Below, piece after piece: positions 46,530 through 63,975 of a stretch of 64,000 bases of DNA. Under the pieces are notes generated by a model. The model worked only from the letters and a program-made list of their open reading frames with translations, did no database searches and was not told the DNA's origin. How positions within the stretch are numbered: the stretch's first letter is position 1; each line of letters starts with the position of its first letter. Location: the NCBI RefSeq assembly GCF_988242995.1, contig NZ_OZ547043.1; one strand, 5' to 3'. Made by a program: the position numbers and the translations under genes.

Positions 46530-47156
<627 letters not shown>

Positions 47157-47168
47157 CTAACTTCGCTT

Positions 47169-47196: not shown

Positions 47197-47245
47197 GGGA
47201 AGCACTCACATTGTCATCAATCTTCGCAACAAGGACCTCGGAAAA

Positions 47246-48124
47246 ATGAATAATCATTTCAAGTGTATTGGCATTGTGGGACACCCACGGCACCCCACTG
47301 CACTGACAACACATGAAATGCTCTACCGCTGGCTGTGCACAAAAGGTTACGAGGTCATCGTTGAGCAACAAATCGCTCACGAACTGCAACTGAAGAATGT
47401 GAAAACTGGCACGCTCGCGGAGATTGGGCAACAGGCTGATCTCGCGGTTGTCGTTGGCGGCGACGGTAATATGCTGGGCGCGGCGCGCACGCTCGCCCGT
47501 TACGATATTAAAGTTATTGGAATCAACCGTGGCAACCTGGGTTTCCTGACCGACCTTGATCCCGATAACGCCCAGCAACAGTTAGCCGATGTGCTGGAAG
47601 GCCACTACATCAGCGAAAAACGTTTTTTGCTGGAAGCGCAAGTCTGTCAGCAAGATTGCCAGAAACGCATCAGCACGGCGATTAACGAAGTGGTACTTCA
47701 CCCTGGCAAAGTGGCGCATATGATTGAGTTCGAAGTGTATATCGACGAGATCTTTGCGTTTTCTCAGCGTTCTGATGGCCTGATTATTTCGACGCCAACA
47801 GGTTCCACCGCTTATTCCCTCTCAGCGGGAGGTCCGATTCTGACACCGTCTCTGGATGCGATTACCCTGGTGCCCATGTTCCCGCATACGTTGTCAGCAC
47901 GACCACTGGTTATAAACAGCAGCAGCACGATCCGTCTGCGTTTTTCGCATCGCCGTAACGACCTGGAAATCAGTTGCGACAGCCAGATAGCACTACCTAT
48001 TCAGGAAGGTGAAGATGTCTTGATTCGTCGCTGTGATTACCATCTGAATCTAATTCATCCGAAAGATTACAGTTATTTCAATACATTAAGCACCAAACTC
48101 GGCTGGTCAAAAAAATTATTCTAA
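47246..48124 (+). CDS. nadK: NAD kinase
   Basis: 292-aa ORF with GGDGN motif ([14 protein letters not shown]). Confidence 0.93.
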
Positions 48125-48143
48125 TTTTACGCCAGCCTCTTTA

Positions 48144-48199
48144 CTGTATATAAAACCAGTTTATACTGTACACAATAACAGTAATGGTTTTTCATACAG
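48144..48199. promoter_or_regulatory. Tandem LexA (SOS) boxes in the recN promoter
   Basis: CTGTATATAAAACCAG (48144-48159), CTGTACACAATAACAG (48166-48181) and a weaker third site ending ACAG at 48199; consensus CTGT-N8-ACAG. Confidence 0.85.
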
Positions 48200-48209
48200 G
48201 AAAACAACT

Positions 48210-49871
48210 ATGTTGGCACAACTGACCATCAGCAACTTTGCTATCGTTCGTGAGCTTGAGATTGATTTTCATAGCGGCATGACCGTAATAACTGGCGAGA
48301 CCGGCGCGGGTAAATCTATTGCAATAGATGCCCTCGGCCTTTGTCTCGGTGGTCGCGCTGAAGCCGACATGGTGCGTACCGGCGCTGCTCGTGCCGACCT
48401 GTGCGCCCGTTTTTCACTGAAAGATACGCCAGCGGCTCTGCGCTGGCTGGAAGAAAACCAACTGGAAGATGGCCGTGAATGTCTGCTTCGTCGCGTAATC
48501 AGCAGCGATGGTCGCTCACGAGGTTTTATCAACGGTACAGCTGTTCCTCTGTCACAACTGCGCGAACTAGGTCAGTTGCTGATTCAGATCCATGGTCAGC
48601 ATGCTCATCAGTTACTTACCAAACCCGAGCACCAAAAATTCCTTCTTGATGGCTATGCCAATGAAACCTCTCTGCTCCAGGAAATGACCGCACGTTATCA
48701 GTTGTGGCATCAAAGCTGCCGTGACCTCGCGCATCATCAACAGTTAAGTCAGGAACGTGCTGCCCGTGCGGAATTGCTGCAATACCAATTAAAAGAACTT
48801 AACGAATTTAATCCGCAGCCCGGAGAGTTTGAGCAAATCGACGAAGAGTACAAACGTCTGGCGAATAGCGGCCAATTACTGACCACCAGCCAGAATGCAT
48901 TGGCATTAATGGCCGATGGTGAAGACGCAAACCTGCAAAGTCAGCTTTACACGGCTAAACAACTGGTGAGCGAATTGATTGGCATGGACAGCAAACTGTC
49001 CGGCGTACTTGATATGCTGGAAGAAGCTACCATCCAGATTGCTGAAGCCAGCGATGAACTGCGCCACTACTGCGATCGTCTGGATCTCGATCCCAACCGA
49101 CTGTTTGAACTTGAACAGCGCATCTCAAAACAGATTTCGCTGGCACGTAAACATCACGTCAGCCCTGAGGCATTGCCACAGTATTACCAGTCGCTACTGG
49201 AAGAACAGCAGCAACTGGACGATCAGGCCGACTCACAAGAAACGCTCGCGCTGGCGGTAACGAAACATCATCAGCAGGCACTGGAAACCGCGCACGCATT
49301 ACACCAGCAACGCCAGCACTATGCAGAAGAACTTGCACAGCTGATCACCGACAGTATGCATGCACTCTCTATGCCGCATGGGCAGTTTACGATTGATGTT
49401 AAATTTGACGAGCATCACCTGGGCGCTGACGGCGCTGATCGTATTGAGTTTCGGGTAACCACCAACCCAGGTCAGCCAATGCAGCCTATTGCCAAAGTTG
49501 CATCCGGTGGTGAATTGTCCCGCATCGCATTGGCAATTCAGGTCATCACGGCGCGTAAAATGGAAACCCCGGCACTGATTTTTGATGAAGTGGATGTAGG
49601 GATTAGCGGTCCAACAGCGGCAGTTGTCGGCAAACTGCTGCGTCAACTTGGCGAATCAACTCAGGTGATGTGTGTTACCCACCTGCCACAAGTCGCGGGA
49701 TGTGGTCATCAACACTATTTTGTCAGCAAAGAAACCGATGGTGCGATGACAGAAACGCATATGCAATCCCTGGATAAAAAAGCGCGGTTACAAGAGCTGG
49801 CGCGCCTGCTTGGTGGCAGTGAAGTCACACGTAACACACTGGCGAATGCGAAAGAACTACTTGCGGCGTAA
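48210..49871 (+). CDS. recN: DNA repair protein RecN (SMC-like ATPase)
   Basis: 553-aa ORF with Walker A (GETGAGKS), long coiled coil, C-terminal Walker B/signature region. Confidence 0.95.
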
Positions 49872-50019
49872 ACTTTTTTCCTGCTTCACGGTCAGAGTAA
49901 ACAGCAAAACGCCGTAAGACCGGAAAGCAAAAGGTTTTAAAGTGATGAAAGGTCTATTATCATCGGCATATTACAGATGAGCCACGTACTGCTCGGGCCC
50001 GAAAAGGAATCAAATCACT

Positions 50020-50361
50020 ATGCGCTGTAAAACGCTGACTGCTGCAGCAGCAGTACTATTGATGTTGACCGCAGGCTGTTCCACTCTGGAGCGAGTGGTT
50101 TACCGTCCTGACATCAACCAGGGGAACTATCTGACCGCTAACGACGTATCCAAAATACGTGTTGGCATGACGCAACAACAAGTTGCGTACGCATTGGGTA
50201 CACCGCTGATGTCCGATCCATTTGGTACGAATACCTGGTTCTATGTCTTCCGCCAGCAACCAGGTCATGAAGGTGTAACGCAGCAAACGCTGACGCTGAC
50301 CTTTAACAGTAGCGGAGTGTTGACCAACATTGATAATAAACCTGCGCTGAGTGGTAACTAA
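50020..50361 (+). CDS. bamE: Outer-membrane assembly lipoprotein BamE (SmpA)
   Basis: 113-aa ORF with lipobox (LTAGCS). Confidence 0.92.
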
Positions 50362-50421
50362 TCATAAAGTTGCCCTCAAAGACGTTAAAAAGGTGCTCAA
50401 TGAGCACCTTTTTTCTGTCTG

Positions 50422-50712
50422 TTATTTATTCGCTGATTTTTCTGCTCGTTGCCTGCGCAGCTCTTTCGGATCGGCAATGAGAGGACGATAAATCTCCACC
50501 CGATCGCCATCATGCACAATATCGCTGAGTTTTGCCGGACGGCTGTAAATGCCGACTTTGTTTTTAGTTAAATCGATATCGGTACGCAATTCCAGCAAGC
50601 CACTGGCACGAATAGCTTCTTCAACCGTCGCACCCTCCTGCAGCGTCACGCGCTGCAGGTACTGCTTCTCAGGTAGCGCATAAGCCACCTCAACGGCAAT
50701 TTTACCTGGCAC
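50422..50712 (-). CDS. ratB: UPF0125 protein RatB (YfjF), antitoxin-like partner of RatA
   Basis: ORF track gives 124 aa; probable GTG start giving (M)[16 protein letters not shown] (96 aa); 5' end overlaps ratA 3' end by 11 nt. Confidence 0.7.
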
Positions 50713-51178
50713 TGTAAACCTCTTTCGCACGAACCGTAAAAGCCTGGACCATATTAGCCGCCAGCTCTTTAAACACGCGACCAAAGGCGAGTTCAATCAA
50801 CTTATTGGTAAACTCAAAGTCGAGATGAAACTCGATACGACACGCCTCCTGGCTCAGCGGCGTAAACTTCCATCCACCGATCAATTTCTTGAACGGCCCA
50901 TCCACCAGATTCATAAGAATACTTTGGTTACTGGTCAACTGGTTGCGGGTAGTAAACGTTTTGCTGATCCCAGCCTTAGAGACATCTACCGCTGCAGTCA
51001 TCTGCCCAGGAGTGGACTCCAGAATCCGACTTCCGGTACAACCCGGCAAAAACTGAGGATAAGACTGAACGTCATTCACTAACTGATACATTTGCTCCGC
51101 GCTGTAGGGTACCAGTGCGGTCCGGCTAATCTGAGGCATAACAATTTCCATCAACAAAAATCCAACAAATAATATCAT
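50702..51178 (-). CDS. ratA: Ribosome association toxin RatA (YfjG), SRPBCC family
   Basis: 158-aa ORF; divergent from smpB. Confidence 0.85.
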
Positions 51179-51309
51179 TTATCCTGCTGTAAAAAAAACG
51201 CTATCCCGGCGCTGGGTAACATCGGGTTCATGCTAAGATAGAGCCTTGTCCCCCGCAGGATTGATATGGGGTGTTTTCGATTTCAGATTACCGATGATTC
51301 ACGACGCTT

Positions 51310-51792
51310 ATGACGAAGAAAAAAGCACATAAACCTGGTTCAGCGACCATCGCGCTTAACAAGCGCGCCCGGCACGAATACTTTATCGAAGAAGAGTTCG
51401 AAGCGGGACTTGCCCTGCAAGGCTGGGAGGTTAAATCCCTGCGCGCAGGAAAAGCCAATATCAGCGACAGCTACGTCCTTCTACGTGATGGAGAAGCATT
51501 TCTGTTTGGCGCTAACATCACGCCAATGGCTGTGGCCTCCACGCATGTGGTGTGCGATCCTACCCGTACCCGCAAGTTACTTCTCAACCAGCGCGAACTG
51601 GACTCATTGTACGGTCGCGTCAATCGAGAAGGCTATACCGTAGTGGCGCTCTCCCTGTACTGGAAAAATGCCTGGTGCAAAGTGAAAATCGGCGTCGCCA
51701 AAGGTAAGAAACAGCACGATAAACGTTCAGATATCAAAGAACGCGAATGGCAGGTGGATAAAGCGCGTATCATGAAAAACGCCCACCGTTAA
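51310..51792 (+). CDS. smpB: SsrA-binding protein SmpB
   Basis: 160-aa ORF directly upstream of the tmRNA gene. Confidence 0.95.
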
Positions 51793-52006
51793 ACCTGCAC
51801 TGCAATTATTGACCCGCTCCTCACCGCGCCTCCCTCTCCGGCGGCGCGAATGCACATCTTATTGGCTATCACATCCGACACAAATGTTGCCATCCCATTG
51901 CTTAATCGAATAAAAATCAGGCTACATGGGTGCTAAATCTTTAACGATAACGCCATTGAGGCTGGTCATGGCACTCATGAATCTGGTATACTTACCGTTA
52001 CACATT

Positions 52007-52369
52007 GGGGCTGATTCTGGATTCGACGGGATTTGCGAAACCCAAGGTGCATGCCGAGGGGCGGTTGGCCTCGTAAAAAGCCGCAAAAAATAGTCGCAAA
52101 CGACGAAAACTACGCTTTAGCAGCTTAATAACCTGCTTAGAGCCCTCTCTCCCTAGCCTCCGCTCTTAGGACGGGGATCAAGAGAGGTCAAACCCAAAAG
52201 AGATCGCGTGGAAGCCCTGCCTGGGGTTGAAGCGTTAAAACTTAATCAGGCTAGTTTGTTAGTGGCGTGTCCGTCCGCAGCTGGCAAGCGAATGTAAAGA
52301 CTGACTAAGCATGTAGTACCGAGGATGTAGGAATTTCGGACGCGGGTTCAACTCCCGCCAGCTCCACCA
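52007..52369 (+). ncRNA. ssrA: tmRNA (SsrA / 10Sa RNA)
   Basis: 363 nt from GGGGCTGATTCTGGATTCGACGGG to ...CCCGCCAGCTCCACCA; contains the tag reading frame region; tRNA-like 3' end. Confidence 0.96.
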
Positions 52370-52483
52370 CTTGCTCTTCCGGATACGTCCGGAGAAATCC
52401 TGAAAGCCCGCATGGCGCAAGCCCTGTGGGCTTTTTTGTGTCTACCGTTGTCCGAGGATATCCAGCTGAGTCCAGTGATTATT

Positions 52484-52531
52484 GGTATACGTTTAGGTAT
52501 ACGGTAAGATGTATACCTAAATGCGTATACC
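52484..52531. promoter_or_regulatory. Repeat cluster at the int 5' end (GTATAC-containing repeats with an 11-bp inverted repeat); candidate Int arm-type sites or int operator
   Basis: TTTAGGTATAC-N8-GTATACCTAAA perfect inverted repeat (about 52492-52521) abutting the ATG at 52521, plus two more GGTATAC/CGTATACC copies. Confidence 0.45.
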
Positions 52532-53753
52532 AATTCATGAAGGAACGGCCAAAGTGGCAAGAACGACACGTCCCCTGACCAACACTGAAGTTCTGCGCGC
52601 TAAAGCGTTAGAAAAGGATCTAACGTTGCATGATGGCGATGGCCTTTTTCTGCTCGTTAAAACGAACGGTAAGAAATTATGGCGTTTCCGCTACCAAAAG
52701 CCAGTAACAAAACAGCGGACCATGATTAGTTTAGGAACCTTCCCTGCACTATCCTTGGCTGAAATCAGAAATGTGCGAGCTAAGTATCTTTCCTTGTTAG
52801 CCAAGGGGATCGATCCACAAACACACAATGAACAAGTCACACAACAACAACAAATTGCAGTAGAAAGTATTTTTTCAAACGTTGCTAAAAATTGGTTTGC
52901 CATTAAACGCAATAGCGTTACACCTGATTATGCAAAGGATATATGGCGATCCTTAGAGAAGGACATTTTCCCTGCTATCGGAGAGATTCCTGTTCAGGAA
53001 ATAAAAGCACGTATATTAATTGAAGCCCTAGAACCAATTAAGGCCCGCGGTGCACTCGAGACTGTTCGTCGTTTGGTGCAACGTATTAACGAAATTATGA
53101 TCTACGCTGTCAATACCGGATTAATTGAGGCTAATCCTGCGTCAGGTATTGGCATGGCTTTTGATAAACCCAAAAAGCAAAATTTGCCAACGCTGCGGCC
53201 AGAAGAATTACCTAAACTGATGCATTCTCTAGTAATGTCAAACCTGTCTATTCCTACTCGTTGTCTGATCGAATGGCAACTACTGACACTCGTTCGCCCT
53301 TCAGAAGCCTCTGGCGCCCGCTGGGATGAGATCGATTTAGAATCCAAACTTTGGAGAATTCCTGCTGAAAGGATGAAAGCAAAGCGCGAACATATAGTTC
53401 CTTTATCATCTCAAGCTTTAATTATTCTTGAAGTAATGAAACCCATAAGTGCTCATCGTGAACATATATTTCCTAGCAGGAATAACCCTCAAGAACCGAT
53501 GAATAGCCAAACAGCAAATGCAGCATTAAAACGCATAGGGTACGGAGGAAAGTTAGTTGCACATGGACTCCGTTCTATTGCCAGCACTGCATTAAATGAA
53601 GCCGAATTTAATTCTGACATTATTGAATCAGCTCTTGCACATGTTGATAAAAATGAGGTGAGAAGAGCATATAACCGCTCCACTTATCTTGATAAACGTA
53701 AAGAGATGATGGCTTGGTGGGGAAATTTTATATATAAAAATAATTCATTATAA
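52521..53753 (+). CDS. int: Tyrosine recombinase (phage integrase, P4/CP4-57 family)
   Basis: 410-aa ORF with C-terminal catalytic region (HGLRSIAST...LAHVD...RRAYNRSTYLDKR); real start may be the downstream GTG (about 52551, reading VARTTRPLT). Confidence 0.88.
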   Translation: MRIPIHEGTAKVARTTRPLTNTEVLRAKALEKDLTLHDGDGLFLLVKTNGKKLWRFRYQKPVTKQRTMISLGTFPALSLAEIRNVRAKYLSLLAKGIDPQTHNEQVTQQQQIAVESIFSNVAKNWFAIKRNSVTPDYAKDIWRSLEKDIFPAIGEIPVQEIKARILIEALEPIKARGALETVRRLVQRINEIMIYAVNTGLIEANPASGIGMAFDKPKKQNLPTLRPEELPKLMHSLVMSNLSIPTRCLIEWQLLTLVRPSEASGARWDEIDLESKLWRIPAERMKAKREHIVPLSSQALIILEVMKPISAHREHIFPSRNNPQEPMNSQTANAALKRIGYGGKLVAHGLRSIASTALNEAEFNSDIIESALAHVDKNEVRRAYNRSTYLDKRKEMMAWWGNFIYKNNSL

Positions 53754-53764
53754 AAGGTATTACA

Positions 53765-54799
53765 ATGAATATTGATTCTATAAAACTTCATTTACAAAAT
53801 TTTTTCACAAATAATCCAACTGTTCTTATCGGTTCTGGCCTCTCTCTCGGTGAGGGGATTCCAGGTATGAAAACATTGGGAGAACATCTTAATACAACTA
53901 TCCCCAAATTAGTAAGCGGGGATCTTATAAGAGAATGGGGTATCATAAGTTCCAAACTAAATAATGGTATGGGACTTGAAGATGCCATGGCATTTCTTAA
54001 AGATGAAAGTGAACTTATCCCATTAATTATTCAGCACACCGCAGATCTTATTTTAAAGCATGAAAATACTGTAATATGCTCTGTAATCAATGGAGAAAAA
54101 AATCTAGCATTTACATCTTTATTGAATCACTTAACTTTTAATCAAAATGAATTGATAATTATAACTCCAAACTATGATAGACTAATTGAAATAGCATGTG
54201 AAATTGCTGGTCTAGAAATTTCAACAGGATTTATCAATAGTTATCATTGTATAAATAATCCTGAAGTTGAGTTAGATAAATTCAAAATCACCCACTCTAT
54301 CAAAACCACACGAGGTAAATCTACAGTTCAAATTAGAACTAAAAAACACGTTAAAATATTTAAACCTCATGGTAGTCTTGATTGGTTCAAGGCTGACGAT
54401 AAAATTATCAGGACCAGCTTTCAAAATAAACATAAAAGATTAATTATTACACCAGGTACAAGTAAATTCAGAGCTGGATATCAGCAGCCTTTTGATTGGC
54501 ATAGAGAAAAAGCAAACCATTATATCAAAAGAGCAAAATCACTATTAATTATTGGCTATGGGTTTAATGATGAGCAGTTAGAAGTACATTTGAAATCAAA
54601 AATACGTGAAAAAATACCTGTTTTATTAATGACATATGAATTGACATCAAACGCTCAAAAAATATGTGATGATAATCCTTCTATAACATATGTTATTGCA
54701 GAAGGAAACAATTCCATCGTTTGTATCGATGGCATTAAATATAAAATCGAAAAGAATATTTGGTCTTTAAATGAGTTTGTTAAAGAGGTACTTAAATAA
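53765..54799 (+). CDS. SIR2-like NAD+-binding protein (predicted NADase effector); cargo gene 1
   Basis: 344-aa ORF. Gly-rich NAD-binding loop VLIGSGLSLGEG, TPNYD motif (catalytic Asn codon 54170-54172), KPHGS motif (His codon 54367-54369) and second Rossmann motif IIGYGFND. Low GC; stop overlaps next gene's start (TAATG). Confidence 0.8.
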   Translation: MNIDSIKLHLQNFFTNNPTVLIGSGLSLGEGIPGMKTLGEHLNTTIPKLVSGDLIREWGIISSKLNNGMGLEDAMAFLKDESELIPLIIQHTADLILKHENTVICSVINGEKNLAFTSLLNHLTFNQNELIIITPNYDRLIEIACEIAGLEISTGFINSYHCINNPEVELDKFKITHSIKTTRGKSTVQIRTKKHVKIFKPHGSLDWFKADDKIIRTSFQNKHKRLIITPGTSKFRAGYQQPFDWHREKANHYIKRAKSLLIIGYGFNDEQLEVHLKSKIREKIPVLLMTYELTSNAQKICDDNPSITYVIAEGNNSIVCIDGIKYKIEKNIWSLNEFVKEVLK

Positions 54800-56583
54800 T
54801 GGAATATTACGTCATTAACACTGATGAAACATGCTTTATCGGACGAATCGCAAATGTTGATACCGATCGTGCTATTATCATTTCAGAGTCTCCAGAGATC
54901 ATACAAGAACTAACCGTTTTTGACTTGGTTGCTATTGAAGGCAATACCCCCACAGAGTTTCTTGTTGGTATCATTGAAAAAGTAAAACGCTCTATTGGAG
55001 AAATACAAACTATTGATACTGAAGAAAATATTGAAGATGACAGTGAAAAAGATTTCGATAATATCTTCCAAACTTATTCTATCGATCATGATATTCTTCA
55101 AGTAGCTCTTATCGGCACTTTCTGGGAGGTTTACGGGGATAGAAGGAAAATTTTTAAAAGAGGAGCACAATATTTTCCAAAAGTTGAAAAACAAGCATTT
55201 CTTATAAAAAAAGACAGTCTTGAGAAATTAATGTCGGCAGTCGACAATGATACTCCTGATGAGCTAAAACTCATACTAGGCAACTATGGAAATACCAATT
55301 CACGAGCAGTTGCAAATGGGGATAAATTATTTCAGAGACATGCTGCCCTATTGGGGAGTACTGGTTCAGGTAAAAGTTGGACAGTTGCGTCATTACTAGA
55401 ACAAGCCTCAAAATTAAAATACAACAATATTGTACTTTATGATCTTCATGGTGAATACAAAACTTTATCTGATACACATAATAAATCGAACCGCCCGAGC
55501 ATAGCCGATTATTTTAAAATTGCAAGCCCAGGAAATATCGACGATGTAAATAGTATTTATGTACCTCATTGGTTATTAAACAAAGAAGAAATGCTATCAC
55601 TGTTGTTAGATAGAAGCGATAGCAATGCACCTAATCAGGCAGCAAGATTTAGCTACCACGTGAGAGAGCTAAAAAAAGAATACATCACACACAACAGATT
55701 AATACACTTAGAAGATTGTTTGACTGTTGATGCTCCAATACCCTACTCTATCGAGGATCTTATTAGCAGACTGCACGATGATGATCAAGGTATGAAAAAA
55801 GGTACTAATAATAAAGAAATAAAAGGTGATTGGAATGGAAAACTAACAAGATTCATAAGCAGGTTAAGAACAAAAGTAGACGACAAGAGGAACTGTTTTC
55901 TATTCTCAAATAAACCAGAACACAACCAATATGATTGGTTGGAGAAATACGCTTGTAAAATTTTAAAATCAGATAGCACAGATCATGGCATTAAAATAAT
56001 TGATTTTTCTGAAGTTCCTTCAGATATTATGCCTATTGTTATTGGTGTATTGACCAGATTTTTATACAACGTCCAATTTTGGAGATGTGAGACCGAACGA
56101 ACCCCTATAGCATTCGTTTGTGACGAAGCTCATATTTATTTACCCGCTAAGGATACCACTGAGGCTGAAACAAAAATATCCTTATCAATATTCGAGAAAA
56201 TTGCTAAAGAAGGCAGAAAGTACGGAGTATCTTTATTAGTCGTCAGCCAAAGACCTTCTGATGTTAGCAGAACAATACTAAGTCAATGTAATAACATAAT
56301 TTCTCTCAGACTAAGTAATTATAGAGATCAACAGGTAGTTAGTCGGTTAATGCCTGATTCATTGAGTTCATTAACATCCATACTACCAATTCTTGATACT
56401 GGGGAAGCAATAGTTCTTGGCGACTCTGTTCTATTACCAGCTAGAATAAAATTGAATCCACCAACACTCAAGCCCGATAGCGCAACCAGAGCTTTTTGGA
56501 ATGAGTGGGGGGCAATTGAAGCAAAAGAAATCTCTATAGCAAATGCTGTTGAATCACTCAGGAGACAATCTCGTAATCGCTAA
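54799..56583 (+). CDS. HerA/FtsK-type ATPase; cargo gene 2
   Basis: 594-aa ORF. Walker A GSTGSGKS (Lys codon 55372-55374), Walker B FVCDEAH (56122-56133), and KEGRKYGVSLLVVSQRP arginine-finger region typical of HerA. Translationally coupled to the SIR2-like gene. Confidence 0.8.
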   Translation: MEYYVINTDETCFIGRIANVDTDRAIIISESPEIIQELTVFDLVAIEGNTPTEFLVGIIEKVKRSIGEIQTIDTEENIEDDSEKDFDNIFQTYSIDHDILQVALIGTFWEVYGDRRKIFKRGAQYFPKVEKQAFLIKKDSLEKLMSAVDNDTPDELKLILGNYGNTNSRAVANGDKLFQRHAALLGSTGSGKSWTVASLLEQASKLKYNNIVLYDLHGEYKTLSDTHNKSNRPSIADYFKIASPGNIDDVNSIYVPHWLLNKEEMLSLLLDRSDSNAPNQAARFSYHVRELKKEYITHNRLIHLEDCLTVDAPIPYSIEDLISRLHDDDQGMKKGTNNKEIKGDWNGKLTRFISRLRTKVDDKRNCFLFSNKPEHNQYDWLEKYACKILKSDSTDHGIKIIDFSEVPSDIMPIVIGVLTRFLYNVQFWRCETERTPIAFVCDEAHIYLPAKDTTEAETKISLSIFEKIAKEGRKYGVSLLVVSQRPSDVSRTILSQCNNIISLRLSNYRDQQVVSRLMPDSLSSLTSILPILDTGEAIVLGDSVLLPARIKLNPPTLKPDSATRAFWNEWGAIEAKEISIANAVESLRRQSRNR

Positions 56584-56608
56584 TAAAAATATTATCTAGC
56601 AACGCGCA

Positions 56609-56627
56609 GTGCTTTCCCCGCCTCGCC
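56609..56627 (-). other. P2/P4-type cos site (19-nt cohesive end sequence)
   Basis: Window reads GTGCTTTCCCCGCCTCGCC, the exact reverse complement of the P2/P4 cohesive end GGCGAGGCGGGGAAAGCAC as recalled; flanked by GC-rich dyads. Confidence 0.8.
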
Positions 56628-56791
56628 CGCCCGCTTTGCGGGGCGGTTTCAGTGCAGTTGCACTGACACGCTCAGGCCGCGCCGGGAATGGCGCGGTCTG
56701 CAGAAAATGAGGCAGGAAAACGCATGCAAAGCCATGCACCTTATCGATGCATGGCTTTTTTCAGTAAAAACGGGCGGATTTTCGGGGAATT

Positions 56792-57364
56792 TTACACAGA
56801 CTGATGTGATGCCAGTTGCGCACTTTTACGCGAAAAAATCATGTTCTGCGCAGGAGTGAATTTTTCACGGCTGTCATCCACCGAAGCCGCGTCAGGCCTG
56901 AATCCGATGGTCGTTAAAATGTCGCTATCCTGTGCGGAATAATTAATTTTTTCACCCTTCGCAAGCCAGGACTGGAGGGCTTCACGCAGGGCATCTGTGG
57001 CACGCTGTATGGCACAGTTTCGGGCAATGGCCGTCAGCTCACTGTAGCCCATCAGCTCCGGTGCCAGTGCCGCCGCCAGTGCTGTGCCGTGCTGCTGCAT
57101 AAAATCATTCAGCCGGTCGCGGATGCTGATGTGCTGAACGGCTTCATGCGAACGAATATAACGACCGGCGGCCTGATTCACCTGCCATTTTCTGACTTCG
57201 ATAATATTGCGTAATTCGTCCAGGCGACTGACGTTTCTGCCTTCTCCTGACAGAAGCCGCAGGTATTCCTGTTCGGCCGCTGCCAGCTCATTTTTGCGTT
57301 GCAGCCATGCTGCTTTGTTATTCTGACAGGTGTCAAAGGCCTGCTGTAAGGCTGTGCTTTCCAT
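56792..57364 (-). CDS. psu: P4 Psu-like protein (polarity suppression / capsid decoration)
   Basis: 190-aa ORF, the same length as P4 Psu, in the conserved psu-delta-sid order next to cos. Confidence 0.75.
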   Translation of the reverse strand: MESTALQQAFDTCQNNKAAWLQRKNELAAAEQEYLRLLSGEGRNVSRLDELRNIIEVRKWQVNQAAGRYIRSHEAVQHISIRDRLNDFMQQHGTALAAALAPELMGYSELTAIARNCAIQRATDALREALQSWLAKGEKINYSAQDSDILTTIGFRPDAASVDDSREKFTPAQNMIFSRKSAQLASHQSV

Positions 57365-57437: not shown

Positions 57438-57938
57438 TCATTCCAGACGCAGCGAATATGATTGTGTTTTTAACCGTACTGGCGGCAGTTCCTGTTTTTC
57501 ATGCAGGCGTTCTGCCAGTTCGTCCGGCGTGACCGGGCGGACAATGAAACGGTTGATGGTCTGAAGCGTTTTAAACACCAGACCACAGCCCGGATCCGTG
57601 CACACATAAAAACGCTCGGTGACTTCCTGAGACAGACGCCGCGATGTTCTTGACAGTGCAAGGCCTTTACATCTCCGACAACAATATCCGGTAACAAGCA
57701 TTCTTTTCGGCCGTTTCATACTGCCGGAGGCTGACGTCAGTGAATCGCGGTATCTCTGTTTGCCTGAAATGTATTCCATTCCTGAATCTTTACAGTCAGA
57801 GAAAAAGCTTTCACTCGCTTCAAATGTCGCAGAGCAATAAATATTCCGGCACTGTGCAATCATTATCTTGGTGCCATCGTCCATGAAATGTGCGCGACGG
57901 GTGTGAGCAACATGTCCACACGACGGGCAGTAAATCAT
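57438..57938 (-). CDS. delta: P4 Delta-like late-gene activator (tandem Ogr-type zinc fingers)
   Basis: 166-aa ORF with two C-x2-C...C-x4-C zinc-finger units (MIYCPSCGHVAH...CRNIYC and YCCRRCKG...CTDPGC). Confidence 0.85.
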   Translation of the reverse strand: MIYCPSCGHVAHTRRAHFMDDGTKIMIAQCRNIYCSATFEASESFFSDCKDSGMEYISGKQRYRDSLTSASGSMKRPKRMLVTGYCCRRCKGLALSRTSRRLSQEVTERFYVCTDPGCGLVFKTLQTINRFIVRPVTPDELAERLHEKQELPPVRLKTQSYSLRLE

Positions 57939-58669
57939 GACAGCAGCCCTCTGGCCTTAAGCTCTGCTCCCTGCTGGTCTATTTTGTCCTGCCACACCTT
58001 GCGCTGTGCCGGTGTGCCTGCCACCTCATAATCCATGTGCGGGAGTGTTGCCGCTGACAGTCCGGCCAGCCGGAGAACCGGCTCGCCGGTGAGGCTGATT
58101 TGCATCTGTTTTATTTTCTGTTCCAGCGATGATTTCACCTGCTGCATGACAGCCTTTTCCGGCGCGACGTAGCCCTGATGGCCGGTGGTGTTGGCGAGCG
58201 GATTTTCCTGTACCAGGATGCTCAGATGCATTGCCCGGACAAGCGCCTCACAGGTTTCATTCAGGGCGTGTTCCAGCTCATGCTCTGCATACAGACTCAG
58301 CAGGTGATGATGTGCCTTCCGGTAGGCGGTGGCCGTGCTGTCACACGCCCCTTTCAGGCGTTCACATTCAAAATTCAGCACCACGGCCAGATTGTCATAT
58401 TCCTGTACCAGCTCCCGGCGTGCCACGCGCTCAATGTGGCGCTGTTTCAGCTCATCGCTCAGGACACCACCGGCTGCACGAAAGGCCGTGCGCCAGTCGT
58501 CAGCGTCGTTTCCGTCGGCCTGCGTCAGCGCATTTTTTTCCTGCTCTGCCCGTTCAATGGCCGTGATGGTCTCATCCATCAGGCGGGCGTTCTCAAGATG
58601 AGCGGCTCTGGCCTTTTCCAGTTGTGCCAGCGCGGGTTGCAGATATTCAGGGATGGTGTTGTCAGACAT
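57935..58669 (-). CDS. sid: P4 Sid-like external scaffold (capsid size determination) protein
   Basis: ORF track gives 266 aa; start trimmed to MSDNTIPEYLQPALAQLEK (244 aa, the P4 Sid length) with RBS; coiled-coil-rich. Confidence 0.75.
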   Translation of the reverse strand: MSDNTIPEYLQPALAQLEKARAAHLENARLMDETITAIERAEQEKNALTQADGNDADDWRTAFRAAGGVLSDELKQRHIERVARRELVQEYDNLAVVLNFECERLKGACDSTATAYRKAHHHLLSLYAEHELEHALNETCEALVRAMHLSILVQENPLANTTGHQGYVAPEKAVMQQVKSSLEQKIKQMQISLTGEPVLRLAGLSAATLPHMDYEVAGTPAQRKVWQDKIDQQGAELKARGLLS

Positions 58670-58703
58670 TTTCCGGCTCCTCGTCACTTCAGGTTGAGAA
58701 AAT

Positions 58704-58759
58704 TGTGACGTACACCGGACAACAACACGACGCATTGCAGATGTGCCAGCCCTGACACA
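58704..58759. promoter_or_regulatory. Two TGT-N12-ACA dyads; candidate Delta/Ogr activator sites for the divergent late promoters (Psid / PLL)
   Basis: TGTgacgtacaccggACA (58704-58721) and TGTgccagccctgacACA (58742-58759) match the P2/P4 late-promoter activator element TGT-N12-ACA. Confidence 0.55.
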
Positions 58760-58838
58760 GGAGACTCATCCTCAGACCGGCAAGCCAGGAAAAGGTCGCA
58801 GGAAAAACCGGCTTACTGTTTGTTTTTTTATATTTTAC

Positions 58839-58942
58839 TGTTCACCTCTGTTCACCTTAAGAAAAAAGATAAGTAATACAGTAAGTTAAAGGATGAACAA
58901 TCGCAGTAATGACTGTTCACCGTCTGTTCACCACTGTTCACC
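58839..58942. repeat. Candidate P4-type replication origin (ori) iteron cluster
   Basis: Five direct copies of TGTTCACC (58839, 58849, 58914, 58925, 58935) plus a degenerate inverted copy; about 4.8 kb from the crr repeats, as in P4. Confidence 0.7.
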
Positions 58943-59221
58943 CGCTCATGGACTTTTTGTGCTGTTTACTACTGTTTGTTTTTATTAATTCGCCGGGAAT
59001 GAATAAGAAGAAACGATTTGTATTTCACTATAAAAATTACGAATTGCTTTAAGTGGCTTTAAATGACTTTAAGTGGAGATGAACAAAAAATACACAAGCA
59101 TTGTAAGGCTGCCGGAACAAATCCCCCCTGTTGCGTCTGCCGAAAATATTCACAAAATAAAGCGCTACCCGAAGCCGGACGGACTTATCCGGTGCTGTAT
59201 GGACATTAACGAGGTAGCCCG

Positions 59222-59488
59222 ATGCAATCTGTTTTTTCTTCCCCGTCTCCCGCCCCAGTGACGCCACTGATGCCGCTGCCGGACATCACGCAGGAGCGTT
59301 TTTTACGTCTGCCGGAAGTGATGCACCTGTGCGGCCTGTCACGCTCGACCATCTATGAACTTATCCGTAAGGGGGAATTTCCGCCGCAGGTGAGTCTTGG
59401 CGGTAAAAATGTGGCCTGGCTGCACTCTGAAGTCACCGCATGGATGGCCGGGCGCATTGCCGGACGCAAACGGGGGTACGACGCATGA
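59222..59488 (+). CDS. vis: AlpA/Vis-family helix-turn-helix regulator
   Basis: 88-aa ORF with AlpA-type HTH ([27 protein letters not shown]), the length of P4 Vis. Confidence 0.75.
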
Positions 59489-61282: not shown

Positions 61283-63616
61283 ATGAAAATGAACGTAACC
61301 GCCACCGTCAGCCATGCGCTCGGCCACTGGCCGCGTATTCTCCCGGCGCTGGGGATTCAGGTGCTGAAGAACCATCATCAGCCCTGTCCGGTCTGTGGCG
61401 GGAGTGACCGCTTCCGTTTTGATGACAGGGAGGGGCGCGGCACCTGGTACTGCAATCAGTGTGGTGCCGGTGACGGCCTGAAACTGGTTGAAAAGGTGTT
61501 TGGTGTCTCCCCGTCCGACGCGGCCGCAAAGGTGGCTGCCGTGACCGGCAGTCTGCCCCCGGCTGACCCGGCAGTGACGGCTGCCGCCGTTGCTGAAACA
61601 GACGCTGCCCGGAAGAACGCCGCCGCACTGGTACAAACCCTGATGGCAAAAACCCGTCCCGGAACCGGTAACGCCTACCTGACCCGCAAGGGCTTTCCCG
61701 GCCGGGAATGCCGGATGCTGACCGGCACACACAGAGCCGGTGGCGTGAGCTGGCGCGCCGGTGACCTTGTGGTGCCACTGTATGACGACAGCGGCGAACT
61801 GGTTAACCTTCAGTTAATCAGTGCTGACGGCCGTAAGCGCACCCTGAAAGGCGGACAGGTCAGGGGCACCTGTCACACCCTTGAAGGACAGAATCAGGCC
61901 GGAAAACGTCTGTGGATAGCGGAGGGATACGCGACCGCACTTACCGTGCATCACCTGACCGGTGAAACGGTGATGGTGGCGCTTTCTTCCGTGAATCTCC
62001 TTTCTCTGGCCAGCCTTGCCCGGCAGAAGCATCCGGCCTGTCAGATTGTCCTTGCTGCTGACCGTGACCTCAGCGGTGACGGCCAGAAAAAAGCCGCCGC
62101 AGCCGCAGATGCGTGTGAAGGTGTTGTTGCCCTGCCGCCGGTCTTCGGTGACTGGAATGATGCCTTCACGCAGTACGGCGGGGAAGCCACCCGTAAGGCC
62201 ATTTATGATGCCATCCGGCCACCGGCTGAAAGCCCGTTCGACACCATGAGCGAAGCGGAGTTTTCCGCCATGAGTACCAGCGAAAAGGCCATGCGTATCT
62301 ATGAGCATTACGGCGAGGCGCTCGCGGTCGATGCCAACGGCCAGCTTCTGTCCCGCTATGAAAATGGTGTCTGGAAGGTGCTGCCGCCACAGGACTTTGC
62401 CCGGGATGTGGCCGGGCTGTTTCAGCGTCTGCGAGCGCCGTTCTCCTCCGGGAAGGTGGCCTCCGTGGTGGACACCCTGAAGCTGATTATTCCGCAGCAG
62501 GAAGCCCCCTCCCGCCGCCTGATTGGCTTTCGTAACGGCGTGCTCGACACGCAGAACGGCACGTTCCACCCGCACAGTCCGTCACACTGGATGCGCACCC
62601 TGTGCGATGTGGATTTCACCCCGCCGGTGGACGGTGAAACGCTGGAAACCCACGCCCCCGCCTTCTGGCGCTGGCTTGACCGTGCCGCCGGTGGCCGTGC
62701 GGAAAAACGCGACGTGATTCTGGCTGCACTGTTTATGGTGCTGGCAAACCGCTACGACTGGCAGCTCTTTCTGGAGGTGACCGGTCCCGGCGGCAGCGGC
62801 AAAAGTATCATGGCCGAAATCGCCACCCTGCTGGCCGGGGAGGATAACGCCACGTCGGCCACCATCGAGACGCTGGAATCCCCGCGTGAACGTGCCGCGT
62901 TAACTGGCTTCTCACTGATACGCCTGCCGGATCAGGAAAAATGGAGCGGCGACGGTGCCGGACTCAAGGCCATCACCGGCGGCGATGCGGTGTCCGTTGA
63001 CCCGAAATACCGGGATGCGTACTCCACGCACATCCCGGCGGTGATTCTGGCCGTGAACAATAACCCGATGCGCTTCACCGACCGCAGCGGCGGCGTGTCA
63101 CGCCGGCGGGTGATTATTCACTTCCCGGAACAGATAGCCCCGCAGGAGCGCGACCCGCAGCTTAAGGACAAAATCACCCGCGAGCTGGCGGTCATCGTGC
63201 GTCACCTGATGCAGAAGTTCAGCGACCCGATGCTCGCCCGGTCACTGCTTCAGTCCCAGCAGAACTCAGACGAGGCACTGAACATCAAACGGGATGCCGA
63301 CCCGACGTTTGATTTTATCGGCTATCTGGAAACCCTGCCGCAGACCAGCGGCATGTATATGGGGAACGCCAGTATCATCCCGCGTAATTACCGTAAATAC
63401 CTCTATCACGCCTATCTGGCCTACATGGAGGCAAACGGCTACCGGAATGTACTCAGTCTGAAAATGTTCGGACTGGGGCTGCCGGTGATGCTGAAAGAAT
63501 ACGGGCTGAATTACGAGAAGCGCCATACCAAACAGGGGATACAGACCAACCTGACGCTGAAAGAAGAAAGCTACGGCGACTGGCTGCCAAAATGTGACGA
63601 CCCTGCAACAGCCTGA
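61283..63616 (+). CDS. alpha: P4 alpha-type replication protein (zinc-finger primase - TOPRIM - helicase - ori-binding)
   Basis: 777-aa ORF (P4 alpha length). N-terminal zinc finger CPVCGGSDRFRF...WYCNQCG, TOPRIM-like acidic patch (AADRD), helicase Walker A (TGPGGSGKS). Confidence 0.88.
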   Translation: MKMNVTATVSHALGHWPRILPALGIQVLKNHHQPCPVCGGSDRFRFDDREGRGTWYCNQCGAGDGLKLVEKVFGVSPSDAAAKVAAVTGSLPPADPAVTAAAVAETDAARKNAAALVQTLMAKTRPGTGNAYLTRKGFPGRECRMLTGTHRAGGVSWRAGDLVVPLYDDSGELVNLQLISADGRKRTLKGGQVRGTCHTLEGQNQAGKRLWIAEGYATALTVHHLTGETVMVALSSVNLLSLASLARQKHPACQIVLAADRDLSGDGQKKAAAAADACEGVVALPPVFGDWNDAFTQYGGEATRKAIYDAIRPPAESPFDTMSEAEFSAMSTSEKAMRIYEHYGEALAVDANGQLLSRYENGVWKVLPPQDFARDVAGLFQRLRAPFSSGKVASVVDTLKLIIPQQEAPSRRLIGFRNGVLDTQNGTFHPHSPSHWMRTLCDVDFTPPVDGETLETHAPAFWRWLDRAAGGRAEKRDVILAALFMVLANRYDWQLFLEVTGPGGSGKSIMAEIATLLAGEDNATSATIETLESPRERAALTGFSLIRLPDQEKWSGDGAGLKAITGGDAVSVDPKYRDAYSTHIPAVILAVNNNPMRFTDRSGGVSRRRVIIHFPEQIAPQERDPQLKDKITRELAVIVRHLMQKFSDPMLARSLLQSQQNSDEALNIKRDADPTFDFIGYLETLPQTSGMYMGNASIIPRNYRKYLYHAYLAYMEANGYRNVLSLKMFGLGLPVMLKEYGLNYEKRHTKQGIQTNLTLKEESYGDWLPKCDDPATA

Positions 63617-63649: not shown

Positions 63650-63975
63650 TCCCTGAATCCCCCGAAGGTGAACAATCCAGTGTTCACCCTTCACCGTATA
63701 TTCACCCGTTATCACACTGAAATTAAAAGAGAAAAACGAAAGGTGAACAGTGTGAACAATCAAATCAAAAAAAACTTTTTTTCTTCCTGTGTGATTTTCA
63801 GCACGGGAAATTAATCCCCTGCACAAGTCACACCGGCAGAATGCCGGAGGTGAAGAATCGAATGTTCACCCTTCACCCATTATTCACCACCTATCACTCT
63901 GAAATAAAAGGAGAAAACAGAAAGGTGAACAGTGTGAACAGTTCTTTCGAAAAAAAATTTTTTTCCTGTACGATA
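63650..63975. repeat. crr-like cis replication region: two direct repeats of about 130 bp, period about 185 bp, each carrying TGTTCACC/GGTGAACA iterons
   Basis: Repeat 1 (about 63660-63790) and repeat 2 (about 63845-63970) align nearly base for base (ggtgaacaatccagtgttcaccc... versus ggtgaagaatcgaatgttcaccc...); located just 3' of alpha. Confidence 0.75.

What the first reader, a model, noticed from the sequence alone, without database searches (positions are those of the whole stretch)
53765..56583. Sharp compositional break: AT-rich cargo inside a GC-balanced satellite backbone
By eye the SIR2/HerA interval is dominated by A/T-rich codons with long AT runs and no GC-rich stretches, whereas the adjacent integrase, psu-delta-sid and alpha regions and the E. 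coli core are near 50% or higher GC. This suggests the operon was acquired recently from a lower-GC donor and inserted as a cassette.
Basis: seen in the sequence. Interest (0 to 1): 0.5.

Follow-up and report, generated by a model that had tools for sequence, protein, structure and literature searches.

The report
AT-rich defence cargo in P4-like satellite
The AT-rich stretch is real, but it is the already-catalogued swappable anti-phage slot (here a SIR2-HerA gene pair) of a P4-like phage satellite, and its low GC is a standing property of such cargo, not evidence of recent arrival from a low-GC donor.

Summary
Window 53765-56583 has 33.8% GC, against 50.4% for the window (z = -7). Its third-codon-position GC is 0.21-0.27 and its codon usage is atypical for the host. 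The right edge is sharp at 56600, next to the satellite's cos site.

The interval holds a translationally coupled SIR2-HerA anti-phage pair. It sits in the int-psu hotspot of a P4-like satellite integrated at ssrA. Rousset et al. 2022 list this system, and this exact HerA accession, in that hotspot.

"Inserted as a cassette" is supported. Ten other E. coli satellites with 95-99% identical backbones carry unrelated cargo in the same slot.

"Recent, from a lower-GC donor" is not supported by composition:
- All eleven cargos have 32-38% GC.
- Orthologous SIR2-HerA pairs occupy the same ssrA-int slot in Pantoea, Rahnella and Dickeya.
- Relatives in Halomonas-like, Vibrio, Pseudoalteromonas and Neisseria hosts also keep 34-40% GC, although flanks range from 40% to 60% and synonymous sites are saturated.

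The immediate source was most likely another enterobacterial satellite. The finding is ordinary and already known, and of modest interest.

The parts
52007..52369 (+). ssrA (tmRNA) gene; integration target of the satellite (attL side)
   Evidence: ARAGORN finds a tmRNA with tag ANDENYALAA. RefSeq annotates ssrA at the same place in L001 and L002.
52481..52535 (.). GGTATACG-type direct and inverted repeats upstream of int; candidate Int arm or regulatory sites
   Evidence: A 23-bp repeat ATTGGTATACGTTTAGGTATACG recurs (22/23) beyond alpha/crr in L001, and inverted copies lie next to it. The function is inferred.
52521..53753 (+). Tyrosine integrase of the ssrA-targeting family (RefSeq start corresponds to 52554); GC 0.414; mosaic
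   Evidence: NF007246 matches at 596 bits, above its cutoff of 434. Only 1 of 5426 complete E. coli genomes has this allele at >=95% identity; the next best is 81%. Sliding identity shows the 5' end at 91-100% to E. coli ssrA elements and the body at 62-85%.
53544..53753 (+). Last ~200 bp of int, which co-varies with the SIR2-HerA cargo; probable left recombination junction
   Evidence: Identity is 0.69-0.83 to the Pantoea and Rahnella SIR2-HerA elements, against 0.58-0.74 to E. coli ssrA elements with other cargo. The GC change point is at 53605. Homology to L002 ends at 53722 and to L099 at 53687.
53765..54799 (+). SIR2-family NADase effector gene (344 aa), GC 0.304
   Evidence: PADLOC SIR2 model PDLC04082 matches full length at 1e-124. 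Pfam SIR2_2 matches at 9.6e-11. H202 aligns with the catalytic H287 of SaSir2 (8YHX), and the TPNYD motif is present (PMC11514289).
54799..56583 (+). HerA-family ATPase gene (594 aa), GC 0.357; its start overlaps the SIR2 stop (TAATG)
   Evidence: PADLOC HerA model PDLC04105 matches full length at 9e-210. Walker A GSTGSGKS and Walker B CDE are invariant in 14 homologues. The overlap is read from the sequence.
56600..56791 (.). Conserved cos region; the 19-nt cohesive-end sequence lies at 56609-56627 (minus strand). This is the right boundary of the variable slot.
   Evidence: GGCGAGGCGGGGAAAGCAC matches exactly, with 0.03 matches expected by chance. Backbone homology starts at 56600-56603 in more than 1000 genomes. 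The GC change point is at 56600. That this 19-mer is the P2/P4 cohesive end is from my own knowledge.
56792..57364 (-). psu (polarity suppression / capsid decoration), backbone
   Evidence: RefSeq annotates 'phage polarity suppression protein'. GC 0.529, codon index z = -0.1.
57438..57938 (-). delta (Ogr/Delta-like zinc-finger activator), backbone
   Evidence: RefSeq annotation. NF007241 gives a partial match.
57935..58735 (-). sid (capsid size determination), backbone
   Evidence: The orthologue in L087 is annotated 'capsid size-determining scaffold Sid'. It is 90% aa identical to the L002 copy.
58839..58942 (+). Cluster of five TGTTCACC octamers in an AT-rich dip (GC 0.41); P4-type ori
   Evidence: One search finds 13 octamers in the window against 1.8 expected, and 10 of them are in the satellite. 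Calling this the P4 ori iterons is from my own knowledge.
61283..63616 (+). alpha primase-helicase, backbone (GC 0.608)
   Evidence: TIGR01613 (P4-family primase C-terminal domain) matches at 108.7 bits, equal to its cutoff. RefSeq annotation.
63662..63965 (.). Two 122-nt direct repeats (82% identical, 182 nt apart) carrying five TGTTCACC octamers; P4-type crr
   Evidence: The interpretation as the crr is from my own knowledge.

Best explanation
The interval is the variable cargo slot (the 'defence hotspot') of a P4-like phage satellite integrated at ssrA. In this element the slot holds a two-gene SIR2-HerA anti-phage system.

Shown here:
- The element has the order attL(ssrA)-int-SIR2-HerA-cos-psu-delta-sid-ori-...-alpha-crr.
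- The slot is bounded on the right by the cos site (56600) and on the left by a junction within the last ~200 bp of int.
- Satellites with near-identical backbones carry unrelated cargo in the same slot.
- Every cargo sampled is 32-38% GC.
- This SIR2-HerA clade stays at 30-40% GC in hosts of 40-60% GC, despite saturated synonymous divergence.

Inferred:
- Cargo is exchanged between satellites by recombination in the conserved flanks (int on one side, cos-psu on the other).
- The immediate source of this cargo was another enterobacterial P4-like satellite, not a low-GC organism.
- The low GC is a steady state of the mobile defence-gene pool. AT-biased mutation with weak selection or biased gene conversion for GC is one likely cause, and tolerance through H-NS/Rho silencing may contribute. 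It is not a clock for recency.

Function, inferred from characterised family members: a HerA hexamer assembles with SIR2 oligomers, and phage infection switches on SIR2 NAD+ hydrolysis. The infected cell is depleted of NAD+ and phage replication aborts. This protects the lysogen population and the satellite from competing phages.
For: - Composition.
- Identity of the genes: PADLOC full-length hits for SIR2 (1e-124) and HerA (9e-210); Pfam SIR2_2; catalytic His aligned; Walker A and B motifs.
- Satellite context: tmRNA, integrase and primase families, RefSeq annotation of the near-identical locus L001, exact cos 19-mer, iterons and crr repeats.
- Hotspot behaviour: backbone homology starts at 56600-56603 in more than 1000 genomes. 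Ten alternative cargos (REase, DEAD helicase, Kiwa-like, DUF4435+AAA, RT, Fic/Doc, ParA, NACHT and hypotheticals) occupy the slot at ssrA, tRNA-Sec, tRNA-Leu and tRNA-Thr sites.
- GC across eleven elements: cargo 0.32-0.38, int 0.40-0.48, backbone 0.53-0.57, host 0.49-0.54.
- Dinucleotide signature: the cassette lies close to the pooled other cargos (distance 44) and far from the host (138) and the backbone (149).
- Orthologous int-SIR2-HerA at smpB-ssrA in Pantoea and Rahnella, SIR2-HerA at the same site in a Dickeya remnant without an integrase, and int-SIR2-HerA-cos-psu on a short contig of an unidentified host that lacks the ssrA flank. SIR2 GC is 0.335-0.355 and HerA GC 0.369-0.386.
- More distant clade members keep 0.34-0.40 in flanks of 0.40-0.605.
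- Four-fold sites are 40% identical between E. coli and Pantoea, with GC at those sites 0.22-0.27 in HerA and 0.14-0.28 in SIR2.
- The 3' end of int co-varies with the cargo.
- The window and L001 are 99.5-99.8% identical from ssrA to delta, but only 96.6% in the host flank and 92-98.5% from sid to alpha.
- Literature: SIR2+HerA and WP_021516369 are listed in the P4 hotspot (PMC9122126). P4 integrases are often exchanged (PMC8628076).
Against: - No experiment was done on this cassette. Its SIR2 is only weakly similar to solved Sir2-HerA effectors (E 1e-10 and 1e-5). Both proteins score far below the NCBIfam equivalog cutoffs (38 vs 500; 289 vs 850). The mechanism is therefore transferred from relatives.
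- Across 48 more distant SIR2-HerA loci, gene GC tracks host GC (r = 0.85, mean deficit only -0.04 to -0.06). An ancestral reservoir of about 38-40% GC for this particular clade cannot be excluded. The Pseudoalteromonas copy fits that pattern.
- The cargo sample is small (11 elements).
- The int 3' junction rests on identity differences of about 10-20 points over 200 bp in six comparisons.
- No mechanism that maintains AT-richness was tested.
Confidence: 0.75

Rival explanations
1. One reading: the SIR2-HerA operon was imported recently and directly from a lower-GC organism into this satellite, and its low GC and odd codon usage are the not-yet-ameliorated signature of that donor.
For: - GC, GC3 and codon index are strongly atypical.
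- The cassette is in only 1 of 5426 complete E. coli genomes.
- Family-wide, SIR2-HerA GC usually sits only 4-6 points below the host. By that rule a 34% GC pair would fit a host of about 38-40% GC, such as Pseudoalteromonas, where a 69%-identical copy exists.
Against: - Ten unrelated cargos in the same slot have the same GC.
- The closest relatives (79-86% aa) are in the same int-linked slot of satellites in Enterobacterales with 50-56% GC flanks.
- Synonymous sites are saturated between these copies, with no rise in GC at four-fold sites.
- The E. coli copy is the most AT-rich of all, not the most ameliorated.
- No relative above 48% aa identity was found on plasmids, and none above 34% in phage records.
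Confidence: 0.12
2. AT-richness of hotspot cargo is actively selected. One version: H-NS and Rho keep the toxic defence genes quiet in the lysogen. The neighbouring Psu, a Rho inhibitor, or infection stress then relieves the silencing.
For: - Unrelated cargos have a uniform GC of 0.32-0.38, and their GC-normalised dinucleotide signatures are similar.
- Low GC persists through saturating divergence.
- psu lies immediately next to the slot, and Psu inhibits Rho (PMC11718236, abstract).
- That H-NS and Rho silence AT-rich foreign DNA is established knowledge (my own knowledge; reviews listed).
Against: - Nothing was tested here.
- The promoter and terminator scan was uninformative: 18 promoter-like sites against 15.5 expected.
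- Hotspot systems cloned from P4-like elements showed anti-phage activity in tests (PMC9122126), so I see no sign that they need Psu. That paper's text, as searched, does not address this point directly.
- Neutral AT-biased mutation in weakly selected mobile genes explains the same pattern more simply.
Confidence: 0.12
3. The low GC is dictated by the amino-acid composition or function of these proteins and says nothing about their history.
For: GC1 and GC2 are also below host values: 0.39-0.45 and 0.31-0.36, against about 0.57 and about 0.38-0.40.
Against: - The largest deviation is at third and four-fold positions (GC3 0.21-0.27; GC at four-fold sites 0.14-0.23).
- Homologous SIR2-HerA pairs range from 0.29 to 0.61 GC depending on the host.
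- Functionally unrelated cargos share the same GC.
Confidence: 0.02

Closest known systems
The int-psu anti-phage hotspot of E. coli P4-like satellites (Rousset et al. 2022, PMC9122126)
   Same: Same element type, same slot between int and psu next to cos. SIR2+HerA is named among the known systems found there. The paper's Table S1A lists 'SIR2_2 + DUF87 ... WP_021516369', which is the HerA accession annotated in the near-identical locus L001.
   Different: Nothing substantive differs about the locus. In the main text as searched, that paper, the 2026 follow-up preprint (10.64898/2026.02.27.708500) and de Sousa & Rocha (PMC8628076) do not use the phrase 'GC content'. The uniform ~34% GC of cargos and its persistence are small additions made here.
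Structurally characterised Sir2-HerA systems: E. coli EcSir2-HerA (8SU9/8SXX/8J4U), S. aureus SaSir2-HerA (8YHX), Paenibacillus PsSir2-HerA (PMC11472057, PMC11514289)
   Same: A two-gene SIR2 + HerA operon. The catalytic His is conserved (H202 aligns with SaSir2 H287). The HerA Walker motifs are present, and PADLOC SIR2-HerA models match full length.
   Different: SIR2 is shorter (344 aa against 415-428) and only weakly similar (E 1e-10 and 1e-5). HerA is closer in sequence to the HerA of HerA-DUF4297 systems (9C1M 1e-67, 8XAU 3e-58) than to EcHerA (2e-33). It scores below the NCBIfam equivalog cutoffs. This is a distinct, structurally uncharacterised subtype.
Canonical satellite phage P4
   Same: Gene order int-cargo-cos-psu-delta-sid-...-alpha, an exact cos 19-mer, and TGTTCACC iterons at ori and crr (the P4 map is from my own knowledge).
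   Different: It integrates at ssrA rather than at a tRNA-Leu gene, and it carries SIR2-HerA instead of P4's own cargo. P4's attachment site and cargo are from my own knowledge and were not checked here.
Classical compositionally atypical genomic islands (un-ameliorated horizontal transfer)
   Same: Low GC and atypical codon usage, next to a tRNA-like gene and an integrase.
   Different: Here the atypical composition persists at equilibrium through saturating divergence in high-GC hosts. The usual inference that low GC means a recent low-GC donor therefore does not hold.

Membership tests
P4-like phage satellite | Core gene set int, psu, delta, sid, alpA-type regulator and alpha primase in the conserved order | tested here: met
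   ORFs and family hits. RefSeq annotation of the 98.6%-identical locus L001. A sid orthologue is annotated in L087.
P4-like phage satellite | P2/P4-type cos site, and alpha-binding iterons at ori and crr | tested here: met
   The cos 19-mer matches exactly at 56609-56627. Ten TGTTCACC octamers lie at 58839-58942 and 63667-63931, and two 122-nt repeats are present. The motif identities are recalled from my own knowledge.
P4-like phage satellite | Intact element bounded by attL and attR | tested here: inconclusive
   attR lies beyond the window. In L001 no exact repeat of 12 nt or more of the ssrA 3' end was found after alpha. Only a 23-bp arm-type repeat was found.
int-psu defence hotspot of P4-like satellites | Unrelated gene sets at one position between conserved int and cos-psu flanks | tested here: met
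   Ten alternative cargos occupy the slot, and backbone homology starts at 56600-56603.
SIR2-HerA anti-phage system | Adjacent, co-oriented SIR2-domain gene and HerA-family ATPase gene | tested here: met
   PADLOC SIR2 1e-124 and HerA 9e-210. The genes overlap at TAATG. The pairing is conserved in 9 close and about 55 distant loci.
SIR2-HerA anti-phage system | SIR2 catalytic His, and intact HerA Walker A and B motifs | tested here: met
   H202 aligns with SaSir2 H287. GSTGSGKS and CDE are invariant.
SIR2-HerA anti-phage system | NCBIfam equivalog membership (SIR2_antiphage NF042942; HerA_antiphage NF042943 and NF042944) | tested here: not met
   Scores are 38 against a cutoff of 500, and 289 and 185 against cutoffs of 850 and 800. 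The pair is a different subtype from those equivalogs.
SIR2-HerA anti-phage system | Phage-triggered NAD+ depletion and protection from phage | not testable with these tools
   This needs phage challenge and NAD+ assays.
Recently acquired, un-ameliorated foreign island | Composition atypical for the host | tested here: met
Recently acquired, un-ameliorated foreign island | Composition matches an identifiable donor and drifts toward the host in older copies | tested here: not met
   The closest relatives are in Enterobacterales of 50-56% GC and have the same low GC. GC at four-fold sites is flat across saturated divergence.

The most novel reading that the evidence does not exclude
Cargo in satellite defence hotspots is held at a common ~34% GC and a shared dinucleotide signature by selection, whatever the gene family or host. 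The purpose would be to place toxic defence genes under H-NS/Rho silencing, which the adjacent Rho inhibitor Psu or infection can lift. On this reading the compositional break is a regulatory design feature, not a historical scar.
Probability: 0.1. Interest if true: 0.6.

Novelty: already known. Interest (0 to 1): 0.25.

Why it matters
The locus is a textbook example of a satellite-borne defence hotspot and is already catalogued, so the finding adds no new kind of system. Its main use is as a caution. A sharp GC drop next to an integrase is usually read as recent import from a low-GC donor. Here the same low GC is shared by eleven unrelated cargos and persists through saturating divergence in high-GC hosts. 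Composition therefore cannot be used to date or source such cassettes. If the uniform ~34% GC of hotspot cargo holds across thousands of loci, it would point to a common compositional regime for the mobile defence-gene pool. That regime could reflect mutational bias or silencing-based selection.

Tried and rejected
- attR search. I looked for a repeat of the ssrA 3' end after alpha in L001. No exact repeat of 12 nt or more was found, only a 23-bp arm-type repeat. The element's right end remains undefined and lies outside the window.
- Promoter and terminator scan of 52300-56900. It found 18 promoter-like sites against 15.5 expected and no convincing + strand promoter in the 11-bp int-SIR2 gap. 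How the cassette is transcribed is unresolved.
- Polarised four-fold substitution counts (E. coli and Pantoea with Rahnella and a Halomonas-like copy as outgroups). Too few sites could be polarised because of saturation, so only the saturation and the flat GC at those sites are used.
It returned only 31-57% identical relatives, not the closest ones. I used it for the family-wide comparison of gene GC with host GC.
- TETRA correlations on 2.8 kb are noisy: cassette to host 0.39, against 0.55 +/- 0.10 for host pieces. I give them little weight.
- Plasmid and phage collections hold no close relative (at most 48% and 33% aa).
- The idea that protein function forces low GC is rejected.
- Chance or artefact is rejected (z = -7).
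Full report
**Observation**

A 500-bp sliding profile drops from about 0.50 GC at 52250 to 0.40-0.43 over 52500-53700. It then falls to 0.30-0.37 over 53750-56500 and jumps back to 0.50-0.53 by 56500-57000.

The stated interval, 53765-56583, has GC 0.338. The whole window is 0.504. Other 2819-bp windows average 0.513 +/- 0.025 with a minimum of 0.458, which gives z = -7.1.

The deviation is strongest at third codon positions. GC3 is 0.209 for SIR2 and 0.269 for HerA, against 0.49-0.57 for host genes and 0.48-0.71 for backbone genes.

- A codon index referenced to 19 host ORFs of 300 aa or more (leave-one-out mean 0.704 +/- 0.045) gives SIR2 z = -3.5 and HerA z = -4.2.
- psu, delta, sid, the icd-like gene, orf151 and alpha fall between -1.3 and +0.2.
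- E. coli-rare codons make up 10-11% of the cassette against 2.2% in the host.
- Karlin's GC-normalised dinucleotide distance is 138 for cassette to host. Host pieces of equal size give 56 +/- 29, and backbone to host gives 53.

One detail is wrong. The integrase (52521-53753) is 0.414 GC, has GC3 of 0.331 and a codon index of z = -3.4. It belongs compositionally with the cargo, not with a "GC-balanced backbone". Likelihood segmentation puts the change points at 52475, 53605 and 56600. The left side is therefore a two-step ramp, and only the right side is a sharp edge.

**What is there**

ARAGORN finds the tmRNA gene ssrA at 52007-52369, directly after smpB.

Downstream lie, in order:
- a tyrosine integrase (NF007246, 596 bits against a cutoff of 434);
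- two + strand ORFs;
- on the minus strand, psu, delta and sid;
- a regulator/icd-like block;
- a P4-family primase (TIGR01613, at its cutoff).

The 98.6%-identical locus in E. coli EC21GDE043 (L001) carries RefSeq annotations that agree with this layout.

Several P4-type sequence features are present:
- The P2/P4 cohesive-end 19-mer GGCGAGGCGGGGAAAGCAC occurs once, exactly, at 56609-56627. That is 26 bp after the HerA stop codon.
- Five TGTTCACC octamers lie at 58839-58942, inside a local GC dip.
- Five more octamers sit on two 122-nt direct repeats at 63662-63965. This matches P4's ori and crr (the motif identities are from my own knowledge).

The element is a P4-like satellite integrated at ssrA. 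Its far end lies beyond the window.

The two AT-rich ORFs are a SIR2-HerA defence pair:
- PADLOC models match full length: SIR2 PDLC04082 at 1e-124 and HerA PDLC04105 at 9e-210.
- Pfam finds SIR2_2.
- SIR2 H202 aligns with H287 of S. aureus Sir2, which PMC11514289 reports as the key catalytic residue. The TPNYD motif is also present.
- HerA has Walker A GSTGSGKS and Walker B CDE, both invariant in 14 homologues.
- The genes overlap at TAATG.

The pair is a distinct subtype. SIR2 is 344 aa and only weakly similar to solved Sir2-HerA effectors (1e-10 and 1e-5). HerA is closer to the HerA of HerA-DUF4297 systems (9C1M, 1e-67) than to E. coli EcHerA (2e-33). Both proteins score far below the NCBIfam equivalog cutoffs.

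**Is it a cassette?**

Yes. Homology to the common E. coli satellite backbone begins at window 56600-56603 in more than 1000 complete genomes. That position coincides with the GC change point and with cos.

I sampled hits without regard to their content and retrieved ten satellites with psu-side backbones 95-99% identical to this one. They sit at ssrA, tRNA-Sec, tRNA-Leu and tRNA-Thr. Their cargos are a 913-aa restriction endonuclease, a DEAD helicase, a Kiwa-like set, DUF4435+AAA, a reverse transcriptase, Fic/Doc, ParA, a NACHT protein and hypotheticals.

This is the int-psu hotspot described by Rousset et al. 2022. That paper names SIR2+HerA among its known systems, and its Table S1A lists WP_021516369, the HerA accession annotated in L001.

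On the left, the integrase is a mosaic:
- Positions 52369-52640 are 91-100% identical to other E. coli ssrA elements.
- The body of the gene is 62-85% identical to everything in hand.
- The last ~200 bp are closer to the Pantoea and Rahnella elements that also carry SIR2-HerA (0.69-0.83) than to E. coli elements with other cargo (0.58-0.74).

The exchanged unit therefore probably runs from about 53.5 kb to 56.6 kb. Recombination in the conserved int and cos-psu flanks is the likely mechanism. This is an inference, but it agrees with the frequent integrase exchange reported in PMC8628076.

**Does low GC mean a recent, low-GC donor?**

The composition does not support that, for four reasons.

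1. The eleven different cargos all have GC 0.32-0.38, with a mean of 0.344 for the ten tabulated together. Integrases are at 0.40-0.48, backbones at 0.53-0.57 and host flanks at 0.49-0.54. The SIR2-HerA cassette's dinucleotide signature is close to the pooled other cargos (distance 44) and far from the host (138) and the backbone (149). The break is a general feature of these satellites.

2. The nearest relatives of HerA are not in low-GC organisms.
   - They are 86% identical in an unidentified host (L100), 84% in Pantoea cypripedii, 83% (truncated) in Dickeya oryzae and 79% in Rahnella perminowiae.
   - In Pantoea and Rahnella the pair sits in the same smpB-ssrA-int-SIR2-HerA arrangement. 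In Pantoea and L100 it is followed by satellite backbone genes.
   - The Dickeya copy lies at the same smpB-ssrA site, but no integrase is called there and the locus looks like a remnant. The short L100 contig shows int-SIR2-HerA-cos-psu without the host flank.
   - SIR2 GC is 0.335-0.355 and HerA GC 0.369-0.386, against recN GC of 0.51-0.56.

3. More distant members of the clade keep the same composition. Copies 51-69% identical have 0.34-0.40 GC in a Halomonas-like MAG (flank 0.605), Vibrio (0.45), Pseudoalteromonas (0.40) and Neisseria (0.48).

4. Divergence is saturated but composition is unchanged. Four-fold degenerate sites are only 40% identical between the E. coli and Pantoea HerA genes, which is essentially saturated. 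GC at those sites is still 0.22-0.27 in all four HerA lineages compared, and 0.14-0.28 in SIR2. The E. coli copy is the most AT-rich of the enterobacterial copies, not the most ameliorated.

The low GC is a long-standing, stable state of this lineage inside high-GC hosts.

There is one caveat. Across 48 more distant SIR2-HerA loci, gene GC tracks host GC (r = 0.85, slope 0.77, mean deficit -0.044 for HerA and -0.061 for the SIR2 slot). The family is therefore not intrinsically AT-rich. An ancient reservoir of about 40% GC for this clade cannot be excluded.

**What is recent?**

Only 1 of 5426 complete E. coli genomes carries the cassette or this integrase allele.

The window and that genome compare as follows:
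- 99.5-99.8% identical from ssrA through delta;
- 96.6% in the 9 kb of host flank;
- 92-98.5% from sid to alpha.

The closest host relative is ST2747, 99.5% identical in the flank. It carries a different integrase allele and a NACHT cargo at the same site.

A block attL-int-SIR2-HerA-cos-psu-delta has therefore moved recently between divergent E. coli hosts and recombined with different right arms. That is recent satellite traffic, not recent capture of the operon from a low-GC species. No close relative exists on plasmids (at most 48% aa) or in phage records.

**Mechanism**

Function is inferred from characterised Sir2-HerA systems (PMC11514289, PMC11472057; the abstract of 10.1101/2021.12.14.472415):
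- HerA forms a hexamer that assembles with SIR2 oligomers.
- Infection activates SIR2 NADase, NAD+ is depleted and phage replication aborts.

The conserved catalytic His and Walker motifs are shown here. The activity itself is not.

Why hotspot cargo stays AT-rich was not tested. The simplest explanation is AT-biased mutation acting on weakly selected, fast-moving genes. A silencing-based selective explanation (H-NS/Rho, possibly relieved by the adjacent Rho inhibitor Psu) is possible, and I give it about 10%.

**Verdict**

- The cassette reading is right.
- The "recent import from a low-GC donor" reading is not supported.
- The locus and its cargo are already catalogued.
- The uniform ~34% GC of unrelated cargos, and its persistence through saturating divergence, is a modest and checkable addition.

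Noticed in passing
window 56609-56627 (region 56600-56791): An exact P2/P4 cohesive-end 19-mer lies 26 bp after the HerA stop, so the cargo slot abuts cos. In many E. coli genomes a ~60-bp stretch (about 56600-56663) matches at 85-93% where nothing is annotated. These are presumably cos sites of P2-like prophages.
   Followed up: partly
window 58839-58942 and 63662-63965: There are two clusters of TGTTCACC octamers: five in an AT-rich dip after sid, and five on two 122-nt direct repeats 182 nt apart after alpha. The layout matches P4's ori and crr. The GC dip at 58750-59249 (0.41) is therefore an origin, not cargo.
   Followed up: partly
window 52481-52535; L001 21033-21055: GGTATACG-type direct and inverted repeats lie just upstream of int. 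A 22/23 copy lies beyond crr at the other end of the element. These are candidate Int arm-binding sites. No attR core repeat of the ssrA 3' end was found.
   Followed up: partly
window 54799-56583: Among solved structures, this HerA is closer to the HerA of HerA-DUF4297 systems (9C1M 1e-67, 8XAU 3e-58) than to the HerA of solved Sir2-HerA systems (8J4U 2e-33). The SIR2 partner is about 70-80 aa shorter than solved Sir2 effectors. This suggests effector swapping on one HerA lineage and a structurally uncharacterised subtype.
   Followed up: partly
L098 8962-11749 (Neisseria-like contig); L096 7102-11596 (Vibrio cyclitrophicus): In the Neisseria-like contig the homologous SIR2-HerA pair is wedged inside a type I-C CRISPR-Cas locus, between a cas3-like helicase and cas5/csd1/cas7. 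In Vibrio it lies next to a Tn7-like tnsA/B/C-tniQ module and HerA is cut by an IS66. The same AT-rich pair rides on several kinds of mobile or defence loci.
   Followed up: no
L004 7770-11791 (Rahnella); L006 7568-11461 (Dickeya): These look like remnant elements. Rahnella keeps int-SIR2-HerA at ssrA, but no satellite backbone follows. Dickeya keeps SIR2 and a truncated HerA, has no integrase, and has an AbiEi gene nearby. The defence cargo seems to outlive the satellite.
   Followed up: no
L099 (E. coli ST2747) 2681-16563; L087 and L090 ~15690: The ssrA site can hold tandem elements. ST2747 has a satellite with a duplicated, partly frameshifted alpA-to-alpha block. L087 and L090 have a second integrase immediately after alpha.
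   Followed up: no
window 43000-52006 vs L001: The host flank is only 96.6% identical to the one complete genome that shares the cassette, and 99.5% identical to ST2747, which has other cargo. The window's source strain is not among the 5426 complete E. coli genomes.
   Followed up: partly
L094 15296-16750: A retron St85-type effector and reverse transcriptase lie after alpha in one satellite. This is consistent with the second, alpha-to-att hotspot mentioned in the 2026 preprint.
   Followed up: no
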